From NCBI GenBank assembly GCA_977017645.1, contig OZ360234.1, positions 55,366,001-55,430,000 on the forward strand: 64,000 nt of DNA. The letters are read 5' to 3'. Below, in pieces: positions 9,623 through 52,572 of this stretch. The stretch comes from Torpedo marmorata. Lineage: Eukaryota. Position 1 is the first letter of the stretch, and every line of letters begins with the position of its first letter. A program made the translations under genes and the position numbers. Below the pieces are notes generated by a model that worked only from the letters and a program-made list of their open reading frames with translations, did not search any database and was not told the origin of the DNA.

Positions 9623-10398
9623 AATGAGTTTTATTGTATTTATTTTCTCTGACCTCTGCTAATGAACTGAATATGTAAGGAAAATTGTTCTGCACAGTGC
9701 AGTTGGACATTCAAATTAGAATGCAGAGGACAAGAGACAGCAGGACCATAAAGCAATGAAGCAAAATTGTTTTTTTGGGGGGGAACAGTCCTGATCTTAA
9801 ATTCGTCATAGCTGTCAGCTATGCTAAATTTAGGATCAGTTTCCTTCCTGTGAAGTAGCATTGCAATACCATTAAAAGTGGTAAATAAATGGAATAACCT
9901 GTGTATAAAAATTAAGTGATCTGATTCTGTCACCTGTATTTCCTTCTGGGTAACTAACTCTACATGGGTTCAAAAATTTACTTATTTTGTGACTGGAGTG
10001 GGAGGTGGGGAGGAGCATTTATAGTGTGCTAATCAATGATTGTTGTGGTGGGTGGAGGGGCTCAGAGCCAGATAATACTATTTAAAAAAAATCACACTAT
10101 GCATGACATGCAATAGTCAGTGCCTACTTAATAGTGACAAATGTACTCAGCCTTTTAAAATGGTTGGAAAATGTGTACCTATTTTGGGAGAAAGAGTCAA
10201 AATTATAATGCCTCTCAGTGGTTCCTTCCTGTTTTAAGGCTGCTATGTAGATGTGATTTGCTGCAAGGTATTTTCTGTTTGCTGAAAATGCAGGAGGCTC
10301 TTCAGAAGTACAGAGTATTGAGTTGTCCTTAAAAGATTAGGAAGGCAAAGATGGGTTGCAAAGTATCACTGACACATAAGATCAATTAAAATCCCAAG

Positions 10399-22645: not shown

Positions 22646-22790
22646 CAGTGATTCTCAACCTTTTTTTCACTCACGTGCCACCTTAAGTAATCCCTTACTA
22701 ACCACAGAGCACCTATGGGATAGGATTGTGGTTAGTAATGGATACTTAAGGTGGTATGCGAGTTGGGGAAAAAAGGGTTGAAAGCCACTG
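22646..22790. mobile_element. hAT MITE (145 bp)
   Basis: TIRs CAGTGATTCTCAACC / GGTTGAAAGCCACTG; 8-bp TSD AACTAGTT. Confidence 0.92.
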
Positions 22791-23598: not shown

Positions 23599-23945
23599 GT
23601 AAGTGCATCTGTTTTATCATTGTCCCCTGAACACATTAATATCTCTCTGAATTGCAGAACCATTTTAAATTAAGTTAATCATTTCAATTTGATATGATAA
23701 ATATCACATAGAAACAAAGTTATTTGTCTAACTGGTCCATGCCAAGACATGTGCTTCAACTTTCCTTTATGCTAAAATTATGCTAAAATTGAACTTTCCC
23801 AAAATTGAACTATTAGTATAACCATCTTTTTACTTGTTTATCTACTTGGCTTTAAGTAATTGCACTAAAAATGACCTTGTTGCGTCAATTGAAATAACAT
23901 TGTGACAAGGCTGGAGGTGTAGAATCCAAAAGAAAAACAGCCTCC

Positions 23946-25870
23946 CATACATTTCATAGAAAATAGGTGCAGGAGTAGGTCATTCAGCCCTTTGAGCCTG
24001 CACTACCTTTCAATATTATTATGGAAGATCTTATGACCATAGTACCCCATCCCTGCTTTCTCTCAATACCCCATGATCCCTTTAGCCATAACTGCCAAAT
24101 CCAATTCCCTTTTGGTAGGGAATTCCACAAGTTCATGACTGGGTGAAGCAGTTTCTCAGCATCTCGATCCTAAATTGCTTACCCCTTATCCTCAGACTCT
24201 GAACCCTTGTTCTAGTCTTCCCCAGCATCAGGAGCATTCTTCCTGCCTGGTCCTGTTAGAATTTTGTTTCAAGTAGATCTTCTCTTAATCTTCTAAATTC
24301 CACTGGCTATAACCCTAGTCCAGTGGTCCTCAACGTTTTTATTTCCACTCACATACTACCTTAAGTAATCCCTTACTAACCACAGCACCTAAGGCACCTA
24401 TGTAGTTAGTAAGGGATTACTTAAGGTTGTATGTGAGTGGGGAAAATAAAGGTTGAGAACCACTGCCCTAGTCTATCCAGTCATTCTCCATACATCAGTC
24501 CTGGAAACCCAGGGGTTTGTTTGGTGAACCTTCACTGCACTTCCTCAATATCAAGAATGTTCTTCTTCAGATTAGCAGGCCAAACCTATATACTGTAACA
24601 CTGTACTCAAGGTATAACCTCATCAAGGACCTGTACAACTGCATGAATACCTCCTGCTTCTACATTCAAAACCTTTTCAAATAAAGGCCAAAGTGCTTTC
24701 TTCACTGCCTGCTTGTACCAGCATTCCAACCTCAATGCCTGGTGTGCCGTGGCATCTGGGTCTCGTTGCACATCCCCTTTTCCTAATTTATCACCATTCA
24801 GATAGTGATCTGCCTTCCTGTTATTGCCATCAAAATGCAGAATCTCATTTTTATCTACATTATACTACAGCTATCATGCATTTTCCCACTCTCCTGCAAT
24901 CTTTTGGAATCTTCCTCACAGCTTGCACTGCCAACCAGCTTTCTATTATCTGCAAACTTGGTGATATTGTATTCAATTCCTTAGTGTAGATCATTAATAT
25001 ATTTGGTAAATAGCTGGGGTTCCAGCACTGAACTTTGTGGTACCCGCCTGGTAACTGCCTGCCCATCTGAAGAGGACCCATTTATTTCAATTCTTTGCCT
25101 CCTGCTTGCTAACCAGTTCTCTATACTATGTTTTCTAATTTTGCACGGCAATTTCTCGTGTTGGACCTTTATCAAAAGCCTTTTGAAAGTCCAAATGCAC
25201 CAACTGGTTCACTGTTGTCCACTCTAGGTTTCATCTTCAAAAAAAATCTACATGATTTATCAAACATGATTTCCCTTTCATAAATTCATGCTAACTTGGA
25301 CTAATTTTGTCATTCCTCTCCAAATGCGCAGCAATGACATCTTTAATAATTGACTCCAGCATTTTCCCAGCTACTGATATCAGGCTAACTGGTCTGTAAT
25401 TGCCTGATTTTTCTCTCCTTCCTTTCTTAAAAGGAACTGATCCAGAGTGTACAGAATGTTCGAAAATAATCACTAATGCATCCACTATCACTTGGGCCAT
25501 CATCTCCTTAAGTACTCTGGAATGCAGACTATCAGGCTCTGGGGACTTTCAATGCCATTAATTTAACTAATGCAATTTCGTCAATTCCTCCTCTGTGCTA
25601 GTCCCTCTGACCTAGTATTCCCGGAATATTATGTGTATCTTCTTTAGTGAAAACCCTACCAAAGAATTTATTCAATTGGTCTGGAATTTCCTTGTTCCCC
25701 ATTATGAATTCCCCTGATTCTGACTGCAGGGCACCTACATTTGCTTTAACTAGTCTTTCTCTAAGGAAGTTTTTGCAGTCAGTTTTTATGTTCCCTGCAA
25801 GTTTACTCCCGTGTTCTATTTCCCCCTTCTAATTAGATCCTTTGTTTAATGTTAGTATATCATATGCTTG
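23946..25870 (-). mobile_element. Degraded CR1 LINE
   Basis: RT remnants (NYRPVSLISVAGKMLESII; RVPQ.SVL.PQLF..YINDL) and CR1 tail. Confidence 0.85.
24321..24465. mobile_element. hAT MITE (145 bp) nested in CR1
   Basis: TIRs CAGTGGTCCTCAAC / GTTGAGAACCACTG; 8-bp TSD CCCTAGTC. Confidence 0.92.
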
Positions 25871-26503
25871 TGTCTTCTGAGTTCTAAATTTCTCCCAGTC
25901 TCCATATTCCATATCCATGTTCAGGTTTGCTGCTTTTCCTAGTCAAATTGTAAACCACTTATTTGTTTTTTATGTTATCCCTGCTTTCCTTCATTAGCCA
26001 CGGTTCATCATATAAATCCCAAGCAATTACTGTTTTGGCTGTGGCTGCACTTGCTATCATATTGATCCACTTTTCACACATGACCACGATTGGATACCAA
26101 GCGTACCTGATGTAAAATGTACAACATAAGTAGGGTATCAAATAAAAGGTGCTGCATTTGTAATAATTCTGTCTCGCAGTAAATAATGGAAACATCTCAA
26201 CAATAAAATGTATAAAGTACTATTTTCCGAGCAAATCTTTGAAAATAAATAATTCACCTTCCAACTTGGGTGCACAACAATGCCTAAAACTTGCCTCATA
26301 GTTGAAATTTGCACACTTTTAGCATAAAGTAAATTCGCAACCTTATCTGCAAAGGTTTGTATTAGAGTTAGAAAAAATGTGAAAACCACTGTTTTAATCG
26401 TACCTAATTGACTCGTTATGTGCATGGTTTCATAACTCCAAAGGAAATGGGCCAATGATAATTTTTCTCAAGCAAAATATTTCCGTAACAATTGGGTCTA
26501 GAG

Positions 26504-26632
26504 CAGTGGTTCGCAACCTTCCCTTCCCACTCACATACCACATTAAGCAATCCCTTACTAATCACAGAGCACATGGCATAGGGATTGCTTAAGGTGGAAT
26601 GTGAGTTTAGGGGGGCAGTTTGAAAACCACTG
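26504..26632. mobile_element. hAT MITE, same family
   Basis: CAGTGGTT..AACCACTG termini; internal hairpin shared with the 22646 and 24321 copies; TSD degenerate. Confidence 0.82.
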
Positions 26633-27185
26633 ATTTAGATCCTTAGATAACATTCTTCATTGACTACTATATCACAAATTTTGGTGTCCTCTGCAAGCTA
26701 CATTGTCATCTATATTAATGACTTGGATGACACACCAGTAGACCCAGTGCTGATCCCTGTGGTACACCATTGATCACAGGCTTACAATCTGAGTTAGAAC
26801 CCTCCACTACTGCTCTCTGTCTCATACCATCAAGCCAGTTATCCAGTTGGACAACTCACCCTGGATCCCATGAAATCTGACCTTACAGACCAGCCTCCCA
26901 TGTGGGACCTTGTCAAAGGCCTTGATAACGTCCATACAGATGATGTGTACTGCCCTACCTTCATCAATCTTCTTTGTCATGTCTTCAAAAAAAAAAAAAA
27001 AAAACTCAGTCAAGATTTCCCATGCACAAAGGCATGTTGACTATTTCTAATCAGCCCTTGTGTTTCCAAATGCAAGTAGATCCTGTCTCACGGAATCCCT
27101 TCCTGTAACTTGCCCACGACTGATGTTATGCTCACTGGCCTGTAGTTCCCTGGGTTATCCTTACAGCCATTTTTAAAGACAGAAC

Positions 27186-29420
27186 AAGCAAAGCAAATGA
27201 GGTACTTGAGTATAAAAAAAAATGCAAGAAGAAACTTAAAGAAATCAGGAAGGCTAAAAGAAGACATGAGGTTGCTTTGGCAAACAATGTGAAGGAAAAT
27301 CTTAAGGGTTTCTACAGATATATTAAGAGCAAAAGGATAGTAAGGGACAAAATTGGTCCCTTGAAGATCAAAGTGGTCGTCTATGTATGGAGCCAGAAGA
27401 GATGGGAGAGATCTTGAGGTTTTTTGCATCAGTATTTACTCAGGAAACTGGCACAGGGTCTAGTGAAGTAAGGAAAACAAGCAGAGAGGTCATGGGCCTT
27501 ATACAGATTAAAGAGGAGGAGGTGCTTGCTGTCTTAAAGCATATAAGGGTGGATAAATCCCTAGGGCCTGACAAGATATTCCCTCGGACCTTGAGGGAGG
27601 CAAATGTAGAAATTGCAGGGGCTCTGGCAGAAATGTTTAAAATGTCCTTAGCCACGGGTTTGGTGCTGGAGGATTGGAGGGTAGCTCATGTTTTTCTGTT
27701 GCTTTAAAAAAGGCTCCAAAAGTAACCCAGGAAATTATAGGCCGTTGAGCCTGACGTCAGTAGTAGGTAAATTATTGGAAGGTGTTCTAAGAGATCAGAT
27801 ATACAAGTATTTGGATAGTCAGGGACTGATTAGGGATGATCAACATGGCTTTGTGCGTGGAAGGTCGTTTAACCAATTTGATAGAGTTTTTCGAGGAGGT
27901 TACCAGGAAAGTTGATGAAGGAAAGGCTGTGGATGTTGTCTACATGGACTTTAGTAAGGCCTTTGACAAGGTCCTACATGGGAAGTTAGTCAGAAAGGTT
28001 TAGATGCTCGGTATTCATGGTGAGGTAGTAAACTGGATTCTACATTGGCTATACGGGAGTAGCCAGAGAGTGGTGGTGGATGATTGCTTCTCAGACTGGA
28101 GGCCTGTATGTCGTGGTGTGCCTCAGGGATCTGTGCTGGGATTATTGCTGTTTGTCATCTCTATCAATGATCTGGATGATAATGTAAATTGGATCAGCAA
28201 GTTTGCAGATAACACAAAGATTGGAGGTGTTGTGGACAGCGAGGAAGGCTTTCAAAGCTTGCAGAGGGAGCTGGAAAAATGGGCTAAAAAATGGCAGATG
28301 GAATTTAATGCAAACAAGTGTGAGGTGTTGCATTTTGAAAGGACATACACGGTAAATGGTAGGGCACTAAGGAGTGCGGTAGAACAGAGCGATCTGGGAA
28401 TACAGATACATTGTCGCGGTCACGTACTTACCTTCGTCGGGAGTGGTGCCGGCCGCCGCTGATGACGTAAGCGATGCGATGCGCGGGGGTGTTAAGTGTC
28501 AGTATACGGGTGATGAATCTCAGATGCAGGAGGAGAGTGAGAGCGTCAGGATCATCCGTGTGGCAGTGAGCCAATGAGAAGGTCAGAGGGGTTTAGCTGG
28601 GTGGTGTTTGGGGAGTTGAAGAACGCAATGTTGTGTCCAGGGAATTTAAAAAAAAAAAAAATGAAGAAAGAAAGTCGACTTCATGGTGTGCTAAAAGAAA
28701 CGAGTGAGTGTATTCTTTATTTGTTTGTAAGCTGTGGTAAATCTGTGCCGTTACAACATAATTCCCTGAAAGTGGCATCACAGGTAGATAGGGTTGTAAA
28801 GAGAGCTTTTGGCACATTGGCCTTCATAAATCAAAGTATTGAGCGCAGGAGTTGGGGTGTTATGGTAAAGTTGTACAAGGCATTGGTGAGGCCAAATTTG
28901 GAGTATTGTGTGCAGTTTTAGTCACCAAACTACAGGAAAGATATCAATAAGATTGAAAGAGTGCAGAGAAGATTTACTAGGATGTTGCCCGGATTTCAGG
29001 AACTGAGTTACAGGGAAAGGTTAAACAGGTTAGGACTTTATTCTCTGGAGCATAGAAGAATGAGGGGAGATTTGATAGAGGTATTTAAAATTATGAGGGG
29101 GATAGACAGAGTAAATAGAGGTAGGCTTTTTCCATTGAGGGTAGGTGAGATACAAACCAGAGGACATGGGTTAAGGGGAAAAATTTAGGAGAAACATTAG
29201 GGGGATCTTCTTTACACAGAGTGGTGGGAGAGTGGAACAAGCTGCCAGCTGAAGTGGTAAATGCGGGCTCAATTTTAACATTTAAGAAGAATTTGGACAG
29301 GTACATGGATGGGAGGGGTATGGAGGGCGATGGACTGGGTGCGGGTCAGTTGGACTAGGCAGAATAATAGTTTGGGACAGACTAGAAGGGCCTGTTTCTG
29401 TGCTGTAATGTTCTAGGGTT
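27186..29420 (+). mobile_element. CR1 LINE, 5'-truncated
   Basis: Colinear RT pieces (NYRPLSLTSVVGK, GVPQGSVLG, KFADNTK, LVRPNLEYCVQF, RGDLIEVFK) and 3' tail. Confidence 0.92.
28412..28755. mobile_element. Solo LTR inserted in CR1
   Basis: TG..CA ends with imperfect inverted termini (TGTCGCGG/CCGTTACA); 4-bp TSD ACAT; removal restores CR1 sequence ATACAGATACATAATTCC. Confidence 0.85.
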
Positions 29421-30235
29421 CTCTTAGCCACCCTTCAGTTTTGTAGCACCTCACCTGTGCTCAACAATATGCAAATATCTCTGCCAGATCTCCTGCAATT
29501 TATTCCCTAGCTTCCCACAACATCCTAAGATCAGGCTCTGGGGATTTATCTCCCTGAATGAGTTTTAGGATCTCCAGCTCTTCTGTAATCCTGAACTCTC
29601 AAGCTATTTACTTTCCTGAGTTCCCTAGCCTCCAATTCTATCTCCAAGGTAAATTCATTATGAATTGCTCGTTAAGTACCTTGCCCACCTCTCATCTCCT
29701 GTGCTTCAACGCATCGATGACTTTGTGTTTAGGACCCCCATTCTTTCCCTAGTTGTTATTTTCCCTCTAATATTTACAGAATTTCTTGGCTTTCTCCTTG
29801 ACCTTATCTGCCAGAGCCATCTCACACCCTCTTGTTGCCCTCCATATTTCCCTCTTAAGTTAATTCCTATATCCTCAACTGCAATATTTTCATTAATATT
29901 TTAACTTATTGAAATTTATTTGGAGTGGTTTTTGTTTAAATTGTTTCATCCTTTTCAATGTTTATTCCTTTTTGTTAAAGTTTTGATCTGTTACTGATTG
30001 TCAGATTAGGGCTCTGGCTGTCAAAGACTTCTGATAAGCTTTGTGGACAGACATTGCATCATTGAAACCCTGTGTCACTGAAGGTCTTGGACGACTTTCC
30101 TTCAGGACCACCTGTGACACAAAGATTTGCCGCCTTAGGCGAGAGTGGCAGAGTTTGATGATTGAGCAACTCGTGATGCAAGATGTCACCCGGGAAGTTT
30201 AGGTCTCAATGTTTGATTTTTTTTTTCTCCTGCAG

Positions 30236-30411
30236 ATCATTGTATGGTGAATTTCATTAAGGAGAATCTTCTTGGCTCGATAAAGGAATTTAGAAACCGA
30301 TTTATGAATCCAATTCAGAATGGACAATGTGCAGACTCAACTTTAGTAGATGTAAGAGTAATGAAAAAACGTGCCCACATCTTGTATGAAATGTTAGCAG
30401 GTTGTGTGCAG
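30236..30411 (+). CDS. ATRX: ATRX exon (YHCMVNFIKENLLGSIKEFRNRF..LYEMLAGCVQ)
   Basis: poly-T ctcctgcag acceptor, CAG|gtaagt donor, 176 nt. Confidence 0.97.
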
Positions 30412-31500: not shown

Positions 31501-31971
31501 CACTAATTTATTCAAATACTCCACATCAGGCTTGCCCTCAAATGAAAATCAAAATACTGCAGTGCTAGAAAATCTGCAATAAAAAGAAAATACTGGAAAT
31601 GTTTAGTCATTCAGACAGCATCAATGGGGGAAAAAAAATAATTTCTTTCAGTTTGAAGGAACTTGTCAATACTGGGAAAGAACAAAAGTTAGCATCAAGC
31701 TACAGAGATGGTGGGGGAGGGATGGCTGGAATCCACCCTCTGATAGGATGAGGTCAGGTTTGCAATGGGGATGAGTCGTAGAGGTCATCCATTCGATGGA
31801 TTTAACGGAGAGAAAAAATGAATAAAAACTAAGGGCAGCCATAAATACCATTTCATAAATCCAACTGCCTTGTTATTACTTCATTAACAATGGAGGCCAA
31901 TATTTTTCCCTTCTACTGATATCTGCCTCACTGATCTACAGCTCTTTGTTTTTCCCCCCTCCTTCCTTCAG

Positions 31972-32270
31972 ATTTTTCAGATTTCAGATTTATTGTCAGA
32001 GTACATACACGACATCACATACAACCCTGAGATTCCTTTTTCCTGCGGGCGTGGCAGAATTACCACTAATTGGTAGTGCAAAAAATAAACTCTACACAGC
32101 GTAAAACATGTAAACAAATAAAGGAACTGTAAACAGATAACGAATGTAAACAAACTGCAATACAGAGAAAACAAAAGAAAATCAATAAAGTGCACAAGAG
32201 TCCTTAAATGAGTCTCTGATTGAGTTTGTTGTTGAGTCTGATGGTGGAGGGGCAGCAGCTGTTCCTGAAT
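31972..32270 (-). mobile_element. Rex1/Babar 3' end
   Basis: Near-identical to 43521-43810; (TCTGAAA)n tail. Confidence 0.85.
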
Positions 32271-32438
32271 ATAGTTCCTTAAATAGTGAGACTACTTTGT
32301 TTCAGTGTATTTTGATTTGTACATTGAAATCAATGTAGCATGCTGCTGTCTTCTATGCCCTCTGCCAAAATCCTCATCTAAACATCCTGATGATTTTTCT
32401 TTTCATTTCTGTTTCTCCCTGACATTCAAAAACCTCAC

Positions 32439-32683
32439 GGGGTGGCACAGTTAGTGTAGCGTTGGCGTAGCAGTTAGTGCAGGGCTATTACAGCGCCAGT
32501 GACCCTGGTTCGAATCCGGCACTGTCTGTAGGGAGTTTGTATGTTCTTCCTGTAACCGCATGGGTTTCCTCCAGGTGCTTCAGTTTCCTCCCACTTGTGG
32601 GGCTTGTAGGTTCATTGGTTTATTGGGCCGCACAGGCTCGTGGGCCAGAAAGGCCTGTTACCTTGCTGTCTCTAAATTTAAAT
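32439..32683 (+). mobile_element. V-SINE (older copy)
   Basis: B-box GGTTCGAATCC, V-domain, tail. Confidence 0.85.
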
Positions 32684-35746: not shown

Positions 35747-36394
35747 CCGTATTTGATGGCATATAAGAACCACTTTTTCCTCCAAAAAATGGCTCAAAAA
35801 TATCCCCCGGGTCTTTTATGCGAAGTTGAAATTAGGGTGATAATGGTGAGTAAAGCCGACAGTGATTATCGTCGCTGCGTGGCTCACTAGCATCACCGCC
35901 ATCTATCGTTGGGGGCTGGTGGCAGGCTGTCGGGGGAGGGGGGGAGCGGGGCGGTGGGATCACTGTGGGGGCTGGTGGCGGGCTGTCGGGCTACTCTCCC
36001 GGCAGCCCGCTGTCGGTCCCCGCACTAATCCCACCGCCCCGCTCGCCCCTCCGGGAGAGAGTGGGACCAGCGTGGGGACTGACAGCGGGCCGCCGGGAGA
36101 CAGCGGGACCAGCGCGGGGACTGACAGCGGCAGTTTGTTTTTATAAAAAAAATTCTGCTAATAGCTAAGCTGCTTTTGTTTTCTCTTGTAAATTACAGCA
36201 GTGTTATTAAAAAGATTTTTCCTGTTGTTCTAGTTGCATGTTTTGTCCAAGTTTTTTTTCTGCTATACTGTAGCTACATATTTCAATAACATTAAATGCT
36301 TACCCATAAATACACAAAAAAAATTCTTAATATTCTCTGCTGAAATGGGGGGGGGCCTTATATGCCCGTGGGTCGTATATGCCATCAAATACGG
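35747..36394 (+). mobile_element. Non-autonomous pogo-family MITE with GC-rich filler
   Basis: TIRs CCGTATTTGATGGCATATA, TA flanks; both ends match the 46748-48560 element. Confidence 0.9.
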
Positions 36395-50690: not shown

Positions 50691-52572
50691 GTTTTTCATT
50701 TTGCTTATCTATTAACTTACAAGGAACAACTTGAATTACCGGTATATATTGCAAATTATTTTGTTTGCACTGAAAACACAGAAAATCGTATTGCACTTTC
50801 ATGATATCTCAGTTCAATGTGACCCTGCAACTTTGAAGCTACTAATAGCCTAATTAAACCTACTTATTCATAATGCAAAACGATGGCAGATTGAGTACAT
50901 GTATTATACACATTCTTGTCAGATGCTGGAAACTCTGATTTTAAACTATTTCTGATTGGAGGTAAAGAGGAGCAAAACTACTTGGACAGTGGAGAACTAT
51001 ATTCCCATAGCAACAAGAAAAGCACATTATGAACACCATGGATAAATGTATTGCTTTTGAATTAATTTTGGATTGACATTTTTAGTGTTTGTCTTTTATA
51101 TGGTTCCTTATGTTAACATTAATATTTTCCCTATGTTTGCCCAATCTGACCTCATAATTCTTATTCTGTCACATTTATTTCATGCTTCTTCCCACATACT
51201 TTCTTTTGGAGAAGAGAGCCATAGTATTGCCTCTTCTAATGGATATAACCCTTTGATCCCTTTAAATCCATTTTCACCTCTTAGTGCCTCTGCAGTATTT
51301 TTTTAAGATGGAGAGCGTCTATCTACCTGTGCATAGTATTTCAAATTCAGACAAGGCGAGTTGCAAGTTTAACAAAGCTTGTCACCTCTTGTTAATTTGA
51401 TTCTATCACTTACCTTCACACTAGTGACAATATTCAGTGGCCAAATGGGAGTACCCATATGATTGCAAGAAGGACCTCTGAACTCCATTCAGGCAGCATT
51501 GTAGGTGAGGATTGAACATTTGTCGTTGAAGTTGTGAGGCAGTAGTTCTACCAGTTATGCCACTTAAGCAACCCAAAATTAAATTATATTTGCCTTTGTC
51601 TTTTTTCCATAGATCCCTGTAGTAGCACAGTGGCTTTGTGATGCCAATAACTGATCTGCCTTTGCTTCTGATATTCTCTTCTAAAAGTGGCTACTTAAAG
51701 TGTTCGGTGGAAATTGGTATGATCGAGATATATTGTCAAAGATAATTCCTAAGTTCTGAAGCTGATGGGCTGGAGAGAAGCAATTAGAAATGTGCTGACT
51801 AGATTCCTGTCTATAATGAGGCTTTACTTTCATGTTCACTTTGACCATATTCAAATTCTATTGTCTGTTTTTTATGGTCCACTTTAAACAATGATGAACA
51901 ATTGAGCAACTGGTGTTAGTTAATGTGCCACTAGTTTCTGTCAAAATTGAATAATACAGCAAATGAAAGCACAGGTAACTAATAGAATGAGTGAGAAATA
52001 CAGGTGCAGTGTGTTCCTTAGTTTGACTTGAAAGCTGGATAATTTAAGTTTGTTTACTTTTAAAATTGATCAAGAAAATGTGCAGCCATAACATTTCAGG
52101 ACCCCAAGTAAAGCAGTGCATACACAATTGGGTTGAAATGTGGAAAATGGTCATTTGCATAGGGTTAACGGACTGATGACAGAAAAAATTAAACTCCATT
52201 GTAAATAGCTATCTTTACAGGGTGAAATTGACAATGCCCAGTGAATAAAACCTCTCTTTGCTGTCTTGTGGTTTTTATGTCTCTTATTCTAAAGTGAATG
52301 AGGATAAAGTTTACACAGTTGTGGATATTTAAACAGCTGTGATAATGTATAATGGAGCGTGGTCTTTTAAATTTGGCCACTTTTCGTAGCCTCTGAGAAC
52401 TGATTTATGAAAATTGTATCATTTTGAGAAAATATGGTGGAATTGTTAGATCCTTTTTTTATTTTGTGCAGTAATAACTGAAATTGTTGTCAGTCCTGTT
52501 GAAAAAAGTTTCATTTCAGTTATGCAGTCTTCATCTATCCTGAATGTAGTTGCTTTCTTTACATTGCAAATA

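What the first reader, a model, noticed from the sequence alone, without database searches (positions are those of the whole stretch)
30010..30200. Unexplained multibranch RNA-like structure just upstream of an ATRX helicase exon
Seen: a GC-richer island retaining CpGs in AT-rich flanks, matching no repeat I recognise and ending ~35-50 nt before the acceptor at 30235. It folds almost entirely: CTGTC-AAAG/CTTT-GACAG (30018-30050); closing stem TTGCATCA/TGATGCAA (30054-61/30174-81); long hairpin TGTGTCAC/GTGACACA (30071-78/30114-21) with a 4x4 internal loop and upper stem GGTCTTGGA/TTCAGGACC; hairpin TTTGCCGC/GTGGCAGA (30126-33/30145-52); small hairpin TGAG-CAA-CTCG. Several G-U pairs work on the + (pre-mRNA) strand, which favours RNA-level selection. 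No well-placed C/D or H/ACA boxes. Inference: a candidate novel intronic ncRNA or splicing-regulatory structure near the branch point.
Basis: partly seen in the sequence, partly recalled or inferred. Interest (0 to 1): 0.7.

Follow-up and report, generated by a model that had tools for sequence, protein, structure and literature searches.

The report
Branched RNA fold before ATRX exon
A single-copy stretch of about 180 bases near the end of an intron of the chromatin gene ATRX is predicted to fold into a stable branched RNA that matches no catalogued RNA family and likely tunes splicing of the next exon, but it is missing from this intron in several bony-fish-like genomes and may be a neutral relic.

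Summary
The fold is real as a prediction. The core 30050-30188 beats all 20,000 shuffles (z about -5.3). A longer form, 30025-30206, folds better on the pre-mRNA strand (z -4.7 against -1.6). It fails the C/D, H/ACA, hammerhead, pre-miRNA and multi-copy MITE tests. Function is not shown. No RNA data and no distant orthologue could be had. One close relative has 1 change in 182 bases against about 4 expected (p 0.07-0.12). Eleven ray-finned-fish-like ATRX loci have this whole intron at 69-141 bases, too short to hold it. The G-U strand argument is weak (14 against 9, p 0.20), and repeats and a probable coding exon in this locus reach similar z. A 9-base direct repeat brackets it, and it holds five TGTCA words 125 kb from an FGF gene. 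Odds: cis-acting splicing structure 0.35, neutral relic 0.33, released RNA 0.16, DNA enhancer 0.14.

The parts
30025..30206 (+). Whole predicted fold: long irregular outer stem leading into a multibranch core (60 pairs in the model used)
   Evidence: z -4.74 on +, -1.62 on -, 0 and 35 of 500 shuffles; pair probabilities
30050..30188 (+). Core: closing stem 30050-61/30174-87 with multibranch junction
   Evidence: -55.2 kcal/mol, 0 of 20,000 shuffles; z -5.19 on +, -3.35 on -
30071..30121 (+). Long hairpin: 8 bp, 4x4 internal loop, 9 bp with two G-U pairs
   Evidence: pair probability about 1.0; z -4.55 on its own
30126..30152 (+). Second hairpin, two competing registers
   Evidence: 0.46 against 0.50 at 37 C; 0.72 against 0.26 at 20 C
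30163..30173 (+).
   Evidence: 0.07 at 37 C, 0.04 at 20 C
29995..30023 (+).
   Evidence: pair probabilities 0.8-1.0
30103..30105 (+). Decoy acceptor CAG after 9 of 12 pyrimidines, fully paired in the long hairpin
   Evidence: use as an acceptor not tested
30208..30208 (+). Candidate branch adenosine (-28), two bases after the outer stem; the one change in run X1 here (30207) keeps the yUnA pattern
   Evidence: motif recalled, use not tested
30216..30216 (+). Better-matching candidate branch adenosine (-20), outside the fold
   Evidence: motif recalled, use not tested
29955..29973 (.). First copy of a direct repeat (9 exact bases, 17 of 20 aligned columns)
30206..30225 (.). Second copy of the direct repeat, starting where the fold ends and running into the pyrimidine tract
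29999..30188 (.). Five TGTCA/TGACA words (29999, 30019, 30073, 30115, 30184) and an inverted pair of TGATGCAA words (30054, 30174)
   Evidence: the transcription-factor labels are recalled
30236..30411 (+). ATRX helicase-domain exon, 176 bases; the host intron runs from the donor at 23599 to 30235

Best explanation
The stretch 30025-30206 is a single-copy piece of ATRX intron that is predicted to fold in the pre-mRNA into a long stem capped by a multibranch junction, and it likely acts in cis on the 3' splice site of the next exon. Shown: the helices, their stability, single copy, and the position. Predicted: the outer stem covers 30203-30206, four of the bases U2 would read for a branch A at 30208, and the long hairpin buries a decoy acceptor at 30103-05. 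Inferred: folding steers branching to A30216 and the true acceptor, and opening of the outer stem by a protein or by slow transcription would change that choice. It would be lineage-limited, not pan-vertebrate.
For: Core beats 20,000 of 20,000 shuffles and 480 of 480 boundary-tuned controls. It is the strongest locally unique multibranch fold among 28 loci with z at or below -4 in 184 kb of the ATRX locus. It folds better on the transcribed strand, z -4.74 against -1.62. The fold survives holding the TGTCA and TGATGCAA words fixed: z -3.6 and -3.9, 0 of 2000 and 2 of 1200. Run X1 has 1 change in 182 bases, at a base unpaired at 37 C (30158), against 13-14 events in 586 flanking intron bases. 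The outer stem abuts a branch candidate, 30203-06 being 77-89% paired; the decoy CAG is 100% paired. Branch-proximal structures that regulate splicing are known (PMC11162794, passages).
Against: No covariation: no distant orthologue was obtained. The X1 deficit is not significant (Poisson p 0.07-0.09, Fisher 0.10-0.12) and rests on one contig of depth 6.6. G-U against A-C in register is 14 to 9, p 0.20. Eleven ray-finned-fish-like loci have the whole intron at 69-141 bases, and none of 41 read-through peptides resembles the translated element (best p 0.086). A window on a probable coding exon reaches z -4.6, another unique intron window -4.8, and repeated sequences give multibranch folds at -5.4 to -6.6. 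The better branch candidate A30216 lies outside the fold, and A30208 with both neighbours is mostly unpaired. No alternative or poison exon was found by inspection. A 140-base core is more than is needed to cover four bases.
Confidence: 0.35

Rival explanations
1. Neutral sequence: either the decayed relic of a roughly 230-base insertion bracketed by a target-site-like direct repeat, or a chance fold picked out of 64 kb.
For: A direct repeat (9 exact bases, 17 of 20 columns) lies at 29955 and 30206, and the second copy starts where the fold ends; 1 of 104 acceptor-like sites scores as high, 3 of 104 have 9 exact bases, 9 of 2000 shuffles reach the score. Real sequence here has a 19-fold heavier tail than shuffles (1.04% against 0.055% of 9109 windows below z -4); 10 of the 12 loci that rank above it have a further BLAST place in 464 kb, which for palindromes can be their own other arm. 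Absent from this intron in 11 fish-like loci.
Against: No parent or sister copy: six 25-27-base patterns with up to 3 mismatches find only this site plus one chance hit; a copy 15% diverged would be caught 97% of the time, at 20% 75%, at 30% 15% (substitutions only). The two repeat copies differ at 3 of 20 columns, which would make the insertion young enough for a parent to be seen. No terminal inverted repeats at the repeat edges and no clear A-rich tail (sequence). Fewer changes than the flanks in X1. The repeat was found after the fact and runs into a T-rich tract.
Confidence: 0.33
2. A stable non-coding RNA of an uncatalogued class, cut out of the intron after splicing and protected by its long terminal stem.
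For: Size, paired ends, short helices with G-U pairs and position 30-210 bases before an acceptor resemble intron-encoded small RNAs. No Rfam family at gathering score in the window or at E up to 10 beyond six chance-level hits. Weak constraint in X1.
Against: No usable C/D or H/ACA layout. No guide above chance for this genome's 28S, 18S or U2. The only changed base in X1 breaks the one TGATGA. No paralogue in 464 kb around the gene. The outer stem ends 2-10 bases from the branch candidates, leaving little room for trimming (inference). Absent from this intron in 11 fish-like loci.
Confidence: 0.16
3. A DNA enhancer: clustered, partly inverted TALE-homeodomain (MEIS/PBX-type) and C/EBP-ATF-type sites make some of the stems as a by-product, and act on ATRX or on the neighbouring FGF gene.
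For: Five TGTCA/TGACA words; 1 of 2279 windows of 200 bases in 464 kb has five, and 1 of 1000 shuffles. The closing-stem arms read TGATGCAA on opposite strands. An FGF9/16/20-family gene lies 125-135 kb away on the same contig. An enhancer would also explain raised GC and weak constraint. The site labels are recalled, from no call.
Against: Allowing any 5-mer, 68 of 1000 shuffles and 244 of 1160 genomic windows are as enriched. Pairs of TGATG.AA words within 200 bases occur 25 times in 464 kb. The fold stays significant with these words fixed. It does not explain the strand bias. No such enhancer among 12 listed of 24 papers (listing only).
Confidence: 0.14

Closest known systems
Intronic stem-loops with concealed branch sites, such as SF3B3 (PMC11162794; passages and supplement search)
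   Same: A pre-mRNA structure in the last 120 bases of an intron, touching a branch region.
   Different: SF3B3 is a simple 14-17 bp stem-loop upstream of a poison exon and conserved across animals. This is a 180-base multibranch fold before an apparently constitutive exon; the branch A itself is unpaired; conservation is not shown.
Intron-encoded box C/D and H/ACA snoRNAs and scaRNAs (features recalled; Rfam)
   Same: Intronic, sense strand, 140-180 bases, close to the acceptor; one TGATGA, three CTGA, and a hairpin with an internal loop.
   Different: Boxes are in the wrong order or place, no terminal C/D stem, no H or ACA box at the right distance, no guide above chance.
snoRNA retroposons (Weber 2006, PMC1687206; passages)
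   Same: Structured, lineage-limited insert in an intron in the sense orientation, with a direct repeat on either side.
   Different: No A-rich tail on the sense strand, no parent gene in the genome, no snoRNA boxes.
Hammerhead ribozyme, type II layout (core recalled; the U3 variant is reported for this genome by earlier notes)
   Same: GAAA at 30064 before the long hairpin and TTGATGA at 30155 after the second hairpin come in the right order round the junction.
   Different: No U-H cleavage triplet in register, three extra bases before the core, no 10.1-11.1 pair, no Rfam hammerhead hit, and X1 changes the A6-equivalent base.
MITEs and foldback DNA elements
   Same: Inverted arms near both ends; many such hairpins lie in the same introns.
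   Different: Single copy, short nested helices instead of one long palindrome, strand-biased folding.

Membership tests
Box C/D snoRNA or scaRNA | C box near the 5' end and D box near the 3' end closing a kink-turn with a terminal stem | tested here: not met
   Best C-like words (6 of 7) are at 30155 and 30173, near the 3' end; CTGA only at 29994, 30031, 30078, all upstream of them; 30205 reads CTCA here and CTGA in X1, where TGATGA is broken.
Box C/D snoRNA or scaRNA | Antisense element of 10-21 bases to rRNA or snRNA just before a D or D' box | tested here: inconclusive
   One 10-base duplex with one G-U to 18S ends at CTGA 30031; 29 of 600 random CTGA sites do as well. Tested against 28S, 18S and U2 only; other snRNAs not tested.
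Box H/ACA snoRNA or scaRNA | Hairpin, H box (ANANNA), hairpin, ACA three bases from the end | tested here: not met
   ANANNA at 30003, 30117 (inside the stem) and 30234; no ACA after 30121.
Box H/ACA snoRNA or scaRNA | Two-part pocket that pairs round a target U | tested here: not met
   The 4x4 loop gives at most 8-9 pairs in shifted registers on 28S and 18S, none in the modelled register, and at most 5 on U2.
Hammerhead ribozyme | CUGANGA, GAAA and UH in register round three stems | tested here: not met
   TTGATGA and GAAA are present on +, but the base that should be U16.1 is A, and the helices abutting the core do not form; no Rfam hit at E up to 10.
Hammerhead ribozyme | Self-cleavage | not testable with these tools
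   Needs an in vitro transcript.
MicroRNA precursor | One hairpin with a stem of about 33-35 bp | tested here: not met
   The long hairpin has 8 + 9 pairs in 51 bases and sits in a junction; best Rfam miRNA score 17.4 bits against a cut-off of 70, on the other strand. Stem length is recalled.
MITE or other multi-copy repeat | Many copies in the genome | tested here: not met
   One BLAST place, one match to a gapped pattern, six mismatch patterns with one chance extra hit. Old families over about 30% diverged are not excluded.
MITE or other multi-copy repeat | Target-site duplication next to terminal inverted repeats | tested here: inconclusive
   Direct repeat present; the inverted arm at 30025 is 50-60 bases inside the first copy.
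Concealed-branch-site structures (PMC11162794) | Branch A or one of its two neighbours paired in a stem of 7 or more pairs | tested here: not met
   30207-30209 are 77-86% unpaired at 37 C; only 30203-06 are paired. A30216 is outside the element.
Concealed-branch-site structures (PMC11162794) | Alternatively spliced intron, conserved structure | not testable with these tools
   No RNA run and no distant orthologue.
tRNA or tRNA-like gene | Cloverleaf found by ARAGORN | tested here: not met
   0 genes in the window.

The most novel reading that the evidence does not exclude
A box-less, multibranch RNA of an uncatalogued class, limited to cartilaginous fishes, either released from an ATRX intron as a stable RNA or acting as a two-state switch (its second hairpin changes register between 37 and 20 C in prediction) that gates the branch point of a helicase exon.
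Probability: 0.16. Interest if true: 0.75.

Novelty: new variant of a known kind. Interest (0 to 1): 0.4.

Why it matters
If selected, it would be a large structured element controlling a helicase exon of ATRX, a gene central to heterochromatin and telomere maintenance, in a lineage whose non-coding RNAs are barely catalogued; a released box-less RNA would be a new class. One alignment of shark, skate and chimaera introns would settle most of the question. If neutral, it is a useful warning: in this locus repeats and even a probable coding exon reach folding z-scores of -4.6 to -6.6.

Tried and rejected
Rfam: nothing at gathering score in the window or in 15 of the 40 neighbouring 10-kb stretches; six hits at E 0.86-7.3, all far below cut-off. 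Sequencing runs: one DNA holder, no RNA holder listed; this says nothing on expression. Metagenome scan with a 14-base pattern: too short, 114 chance stretches, best BLAST extension 33 bases at 85%; this spent the only scan, so no protein-led search there was possible. Viral contigs: nothing by exon protein or gapped pattern. Single-sequence covariance model: self and generic palindromes (at most 24.6 bits) in the window, nothing in 400 kb of flanks at default filters, nothing at L118; it could not be run on the whole genome. Earlier scan notes: no look-alike by DNA, protein or place. Hammerhead, C/D, H/ACA, pre-miRNA, tRNA: see membership. Passing likenesses to U8, U11, SRP RNA, telomerase CR4/5, hairpin and pistol ribozymes and the guanidine-I aptamer were recalled, not aligned, and none had an Rfam hit. 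A poison exon from the decoy acceptor: no good donor seen by eye. Not in print as far as searched: nine searches (listings only); ATRX absent from the main text of 10.64898/2026.10.24.761493, PMC7941889, PMC12335538 and PMC11162794 (term search and passages) and from the searched supplements of PMC5369223, PMC11880993, PMC12309372 and PMC4053766 (three files of the last not searched). The supplement of PMC11162794 (cut when stored) has 4 ATRX rows for three intron ends, one human and two chicken; which introns they are was not determined and they were not aligned. The preprint's supplements could not be seen and may list a human ATRX structure.

Full report
Setting. The window lies in a 6.2-Gb genome; earlier scan notes call the animal a ray, which I did not test. 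The exon at 30236-30411 translates to ATRX helicase sequence, 90-98% identical to the 120 listed relatives, most of them named ATRX or DNA helicase. ATRX exons run on the + strand from about 64 kb before the window to 50 kb after it. The host intron starts at the donor at 23599 and is 6.6 kb long.

Observation. The fold is larger than described: 30025-46 pairs with 30190-30206, and 29995-30023 is a separate hairpin. The core 30050-30188 has z -5.19 on + and -3.35 on -; the long form has -4.74 and -1.62. None of 20,000 shuffles of the core and none of 480 boundary-tuned controls reach it.

How unusual in real sequence. It ranks 6th of 638 windows in the 64 kb. In 184 kb of the locus, 9109 windows were scored roughly and the best 57 loci rescored; 28 have z at or below -4 and this one is 13th. 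Ten of the twelve above it have a further BLAST place in 464 kb and two are unique long hairpins, so it is the best locally unique multibranch fold. Against that, repeated sequences give multibranch folds at -5.4 to -6.6, a unique intron window at 52270 reaches -4.8 and a window on a probable coding exon -4.6. A z of -5 alone therefore does not show function. The strand argument is modest: counting helices and two flanking positions, G-U against A-C is 14 to 9, p 0.20.

Copy number. BLAST finds only this place, as does a gapped pattern. Six patterns of 25-27 bases with up to 3 mismatches find this place and one other, L118, which has no further likeness. That would catch 97% of copies at 15% divergence, 75% at 20% and 15% at 30%. 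A single-sequence model finds no paralogue in the window or in 400 kb of flanks. A young MITE or SINE is excluded; an old, small family is not.

Conservation. One run holds the element, a DNA run about 2% diverged. It has 1 change in the 182 bases, at 30158, which is unpaired at 37 C, against 13-14 events in 586 covered flanking intron bases; about 4 were expected, p 0.07-0.12. For distant species I used ORFs called on genomic contigs that read through the intron. Of 291 proteins held, 41 passed the filter (50 or more of 58 residues identical, 8 or more residues upstream, not spliced at this junction); four of these are gene models parsed wrongly. Eleven read from the previous exon through the whole intron, which is 69-141 bases; their best named matches are ray-finned fishes. 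That is too short for the element plus splice signals. None of the 41 resembles the three translations of the element (best p 0.086). This test favours short, stop-free introns and is blunt for non-coding sequence, so it shows absence in those loci only. No cartilaginous-fish orthologue was identified.

Known families. Rfam gives nothing. TGATGA lies downstream of all three CTGA words, and X1 breaks it. A 10-base match to this genome's 18S ends at CTGA 30031, but 29 of 600 random CTGA sites do as well. There is no H/ACA layout and no pocket target in 28S, 18S or U2. GAAA and TTGATGA stand in hammerhead order round the junction, but the cleavage triplet and the adjoining pairs are missing. No tRNA.

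Mechanism. Two branch candidates lie after the fold, A30208 and A30216 (the yUnAy pattern is recalled). The outer stem pairs 30203-06 at 77-89% and leaves 30207-09 open. A CAG at 30103-05 after 9 of 12 pyrimidines is fully paired. I infer that the fold favours A30216 and the true acceptor by half-covering one branch site and hiding a decoy acceptor. This works like the concealed-branch-site structures of PMC11162794 but fails that paper's first criterion (passages). No step of the mechanism was tested on RNA.

Rivals. A direct repeat at 29955 and 30206 brackets the GC-richer island, and its second copy begins where the fold ends; 1 of 104 acceptor-like sites scores as high. This suggests an insertion, as for snoRNA retroposons (PMC1687206, passages), but there is no tail and no parent. 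Five TGTCA words and an inverted TGATGCAA pair, 125-135 kb from an FGF9/16/20-family gene, suggest an enhancer; the enrichment fades when any 5-mer is allowed (68 of 1000), and the fold persists with the words fixed. A released RNA is not excluded, since no RNA run was listed.

Print. No description was found in nine searches or in the texts and supplements listed under Tried and rejected; preprint supplements and three files could not be seen.

Verdict. A real, unexplained, single-copy predicted fold with weak signs of selection and no proof of function. About even odds that it is a selected RNA structure (cis 0.35, released 0.16), against neutral 0.33 and enhancer 0.14. Interest 0.4.

Noticed in passing
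window 22650-22790 and 24320-24470: Two related long palindromes (z -12.6 and -10.4) with 3-4 further places in 464 kb; a MITE-like family.
   Followed up: partly
window 35930-36070: GC-rich (75%) near-perfect long hairpin, z -8.3, with no further place in 464 kb.
   Followed up: no
window 9750-9890: Locally unique long interrupted hairpin, z -5.7 on + and -5.2 on -; probably a decayed palindromic element.
   Followed up: no
window 52270-52410: Locally unique AT-rich three-hairpin fold, z -4.8 on + and -1.6 on -; no ATRX exon seen in it.
   Followed up: partly
window 27500-29520 and 31900-32650: Very high-copy repeats by depth in run X1, flanking the unique stretch that holds the element and the exon.
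   Followed up: no
L154 1589-1777, minus strand (G000:C47:55521589-55530533): FGF9/16/20-family gene about 40 kb beyond the last ATRX exon found, on the opposite strand.
   Followed up: partly
G000:C78:10257844-10300675: Tandem array of about a dozen U2 snRNA genes at a period near 2.9 kb.
   Followed up: no
window 30007-30012: One TTAGGG telomeric word forms the loop of the 5' hairpin in this ATRX intron; probably chance.
   Followed up: no
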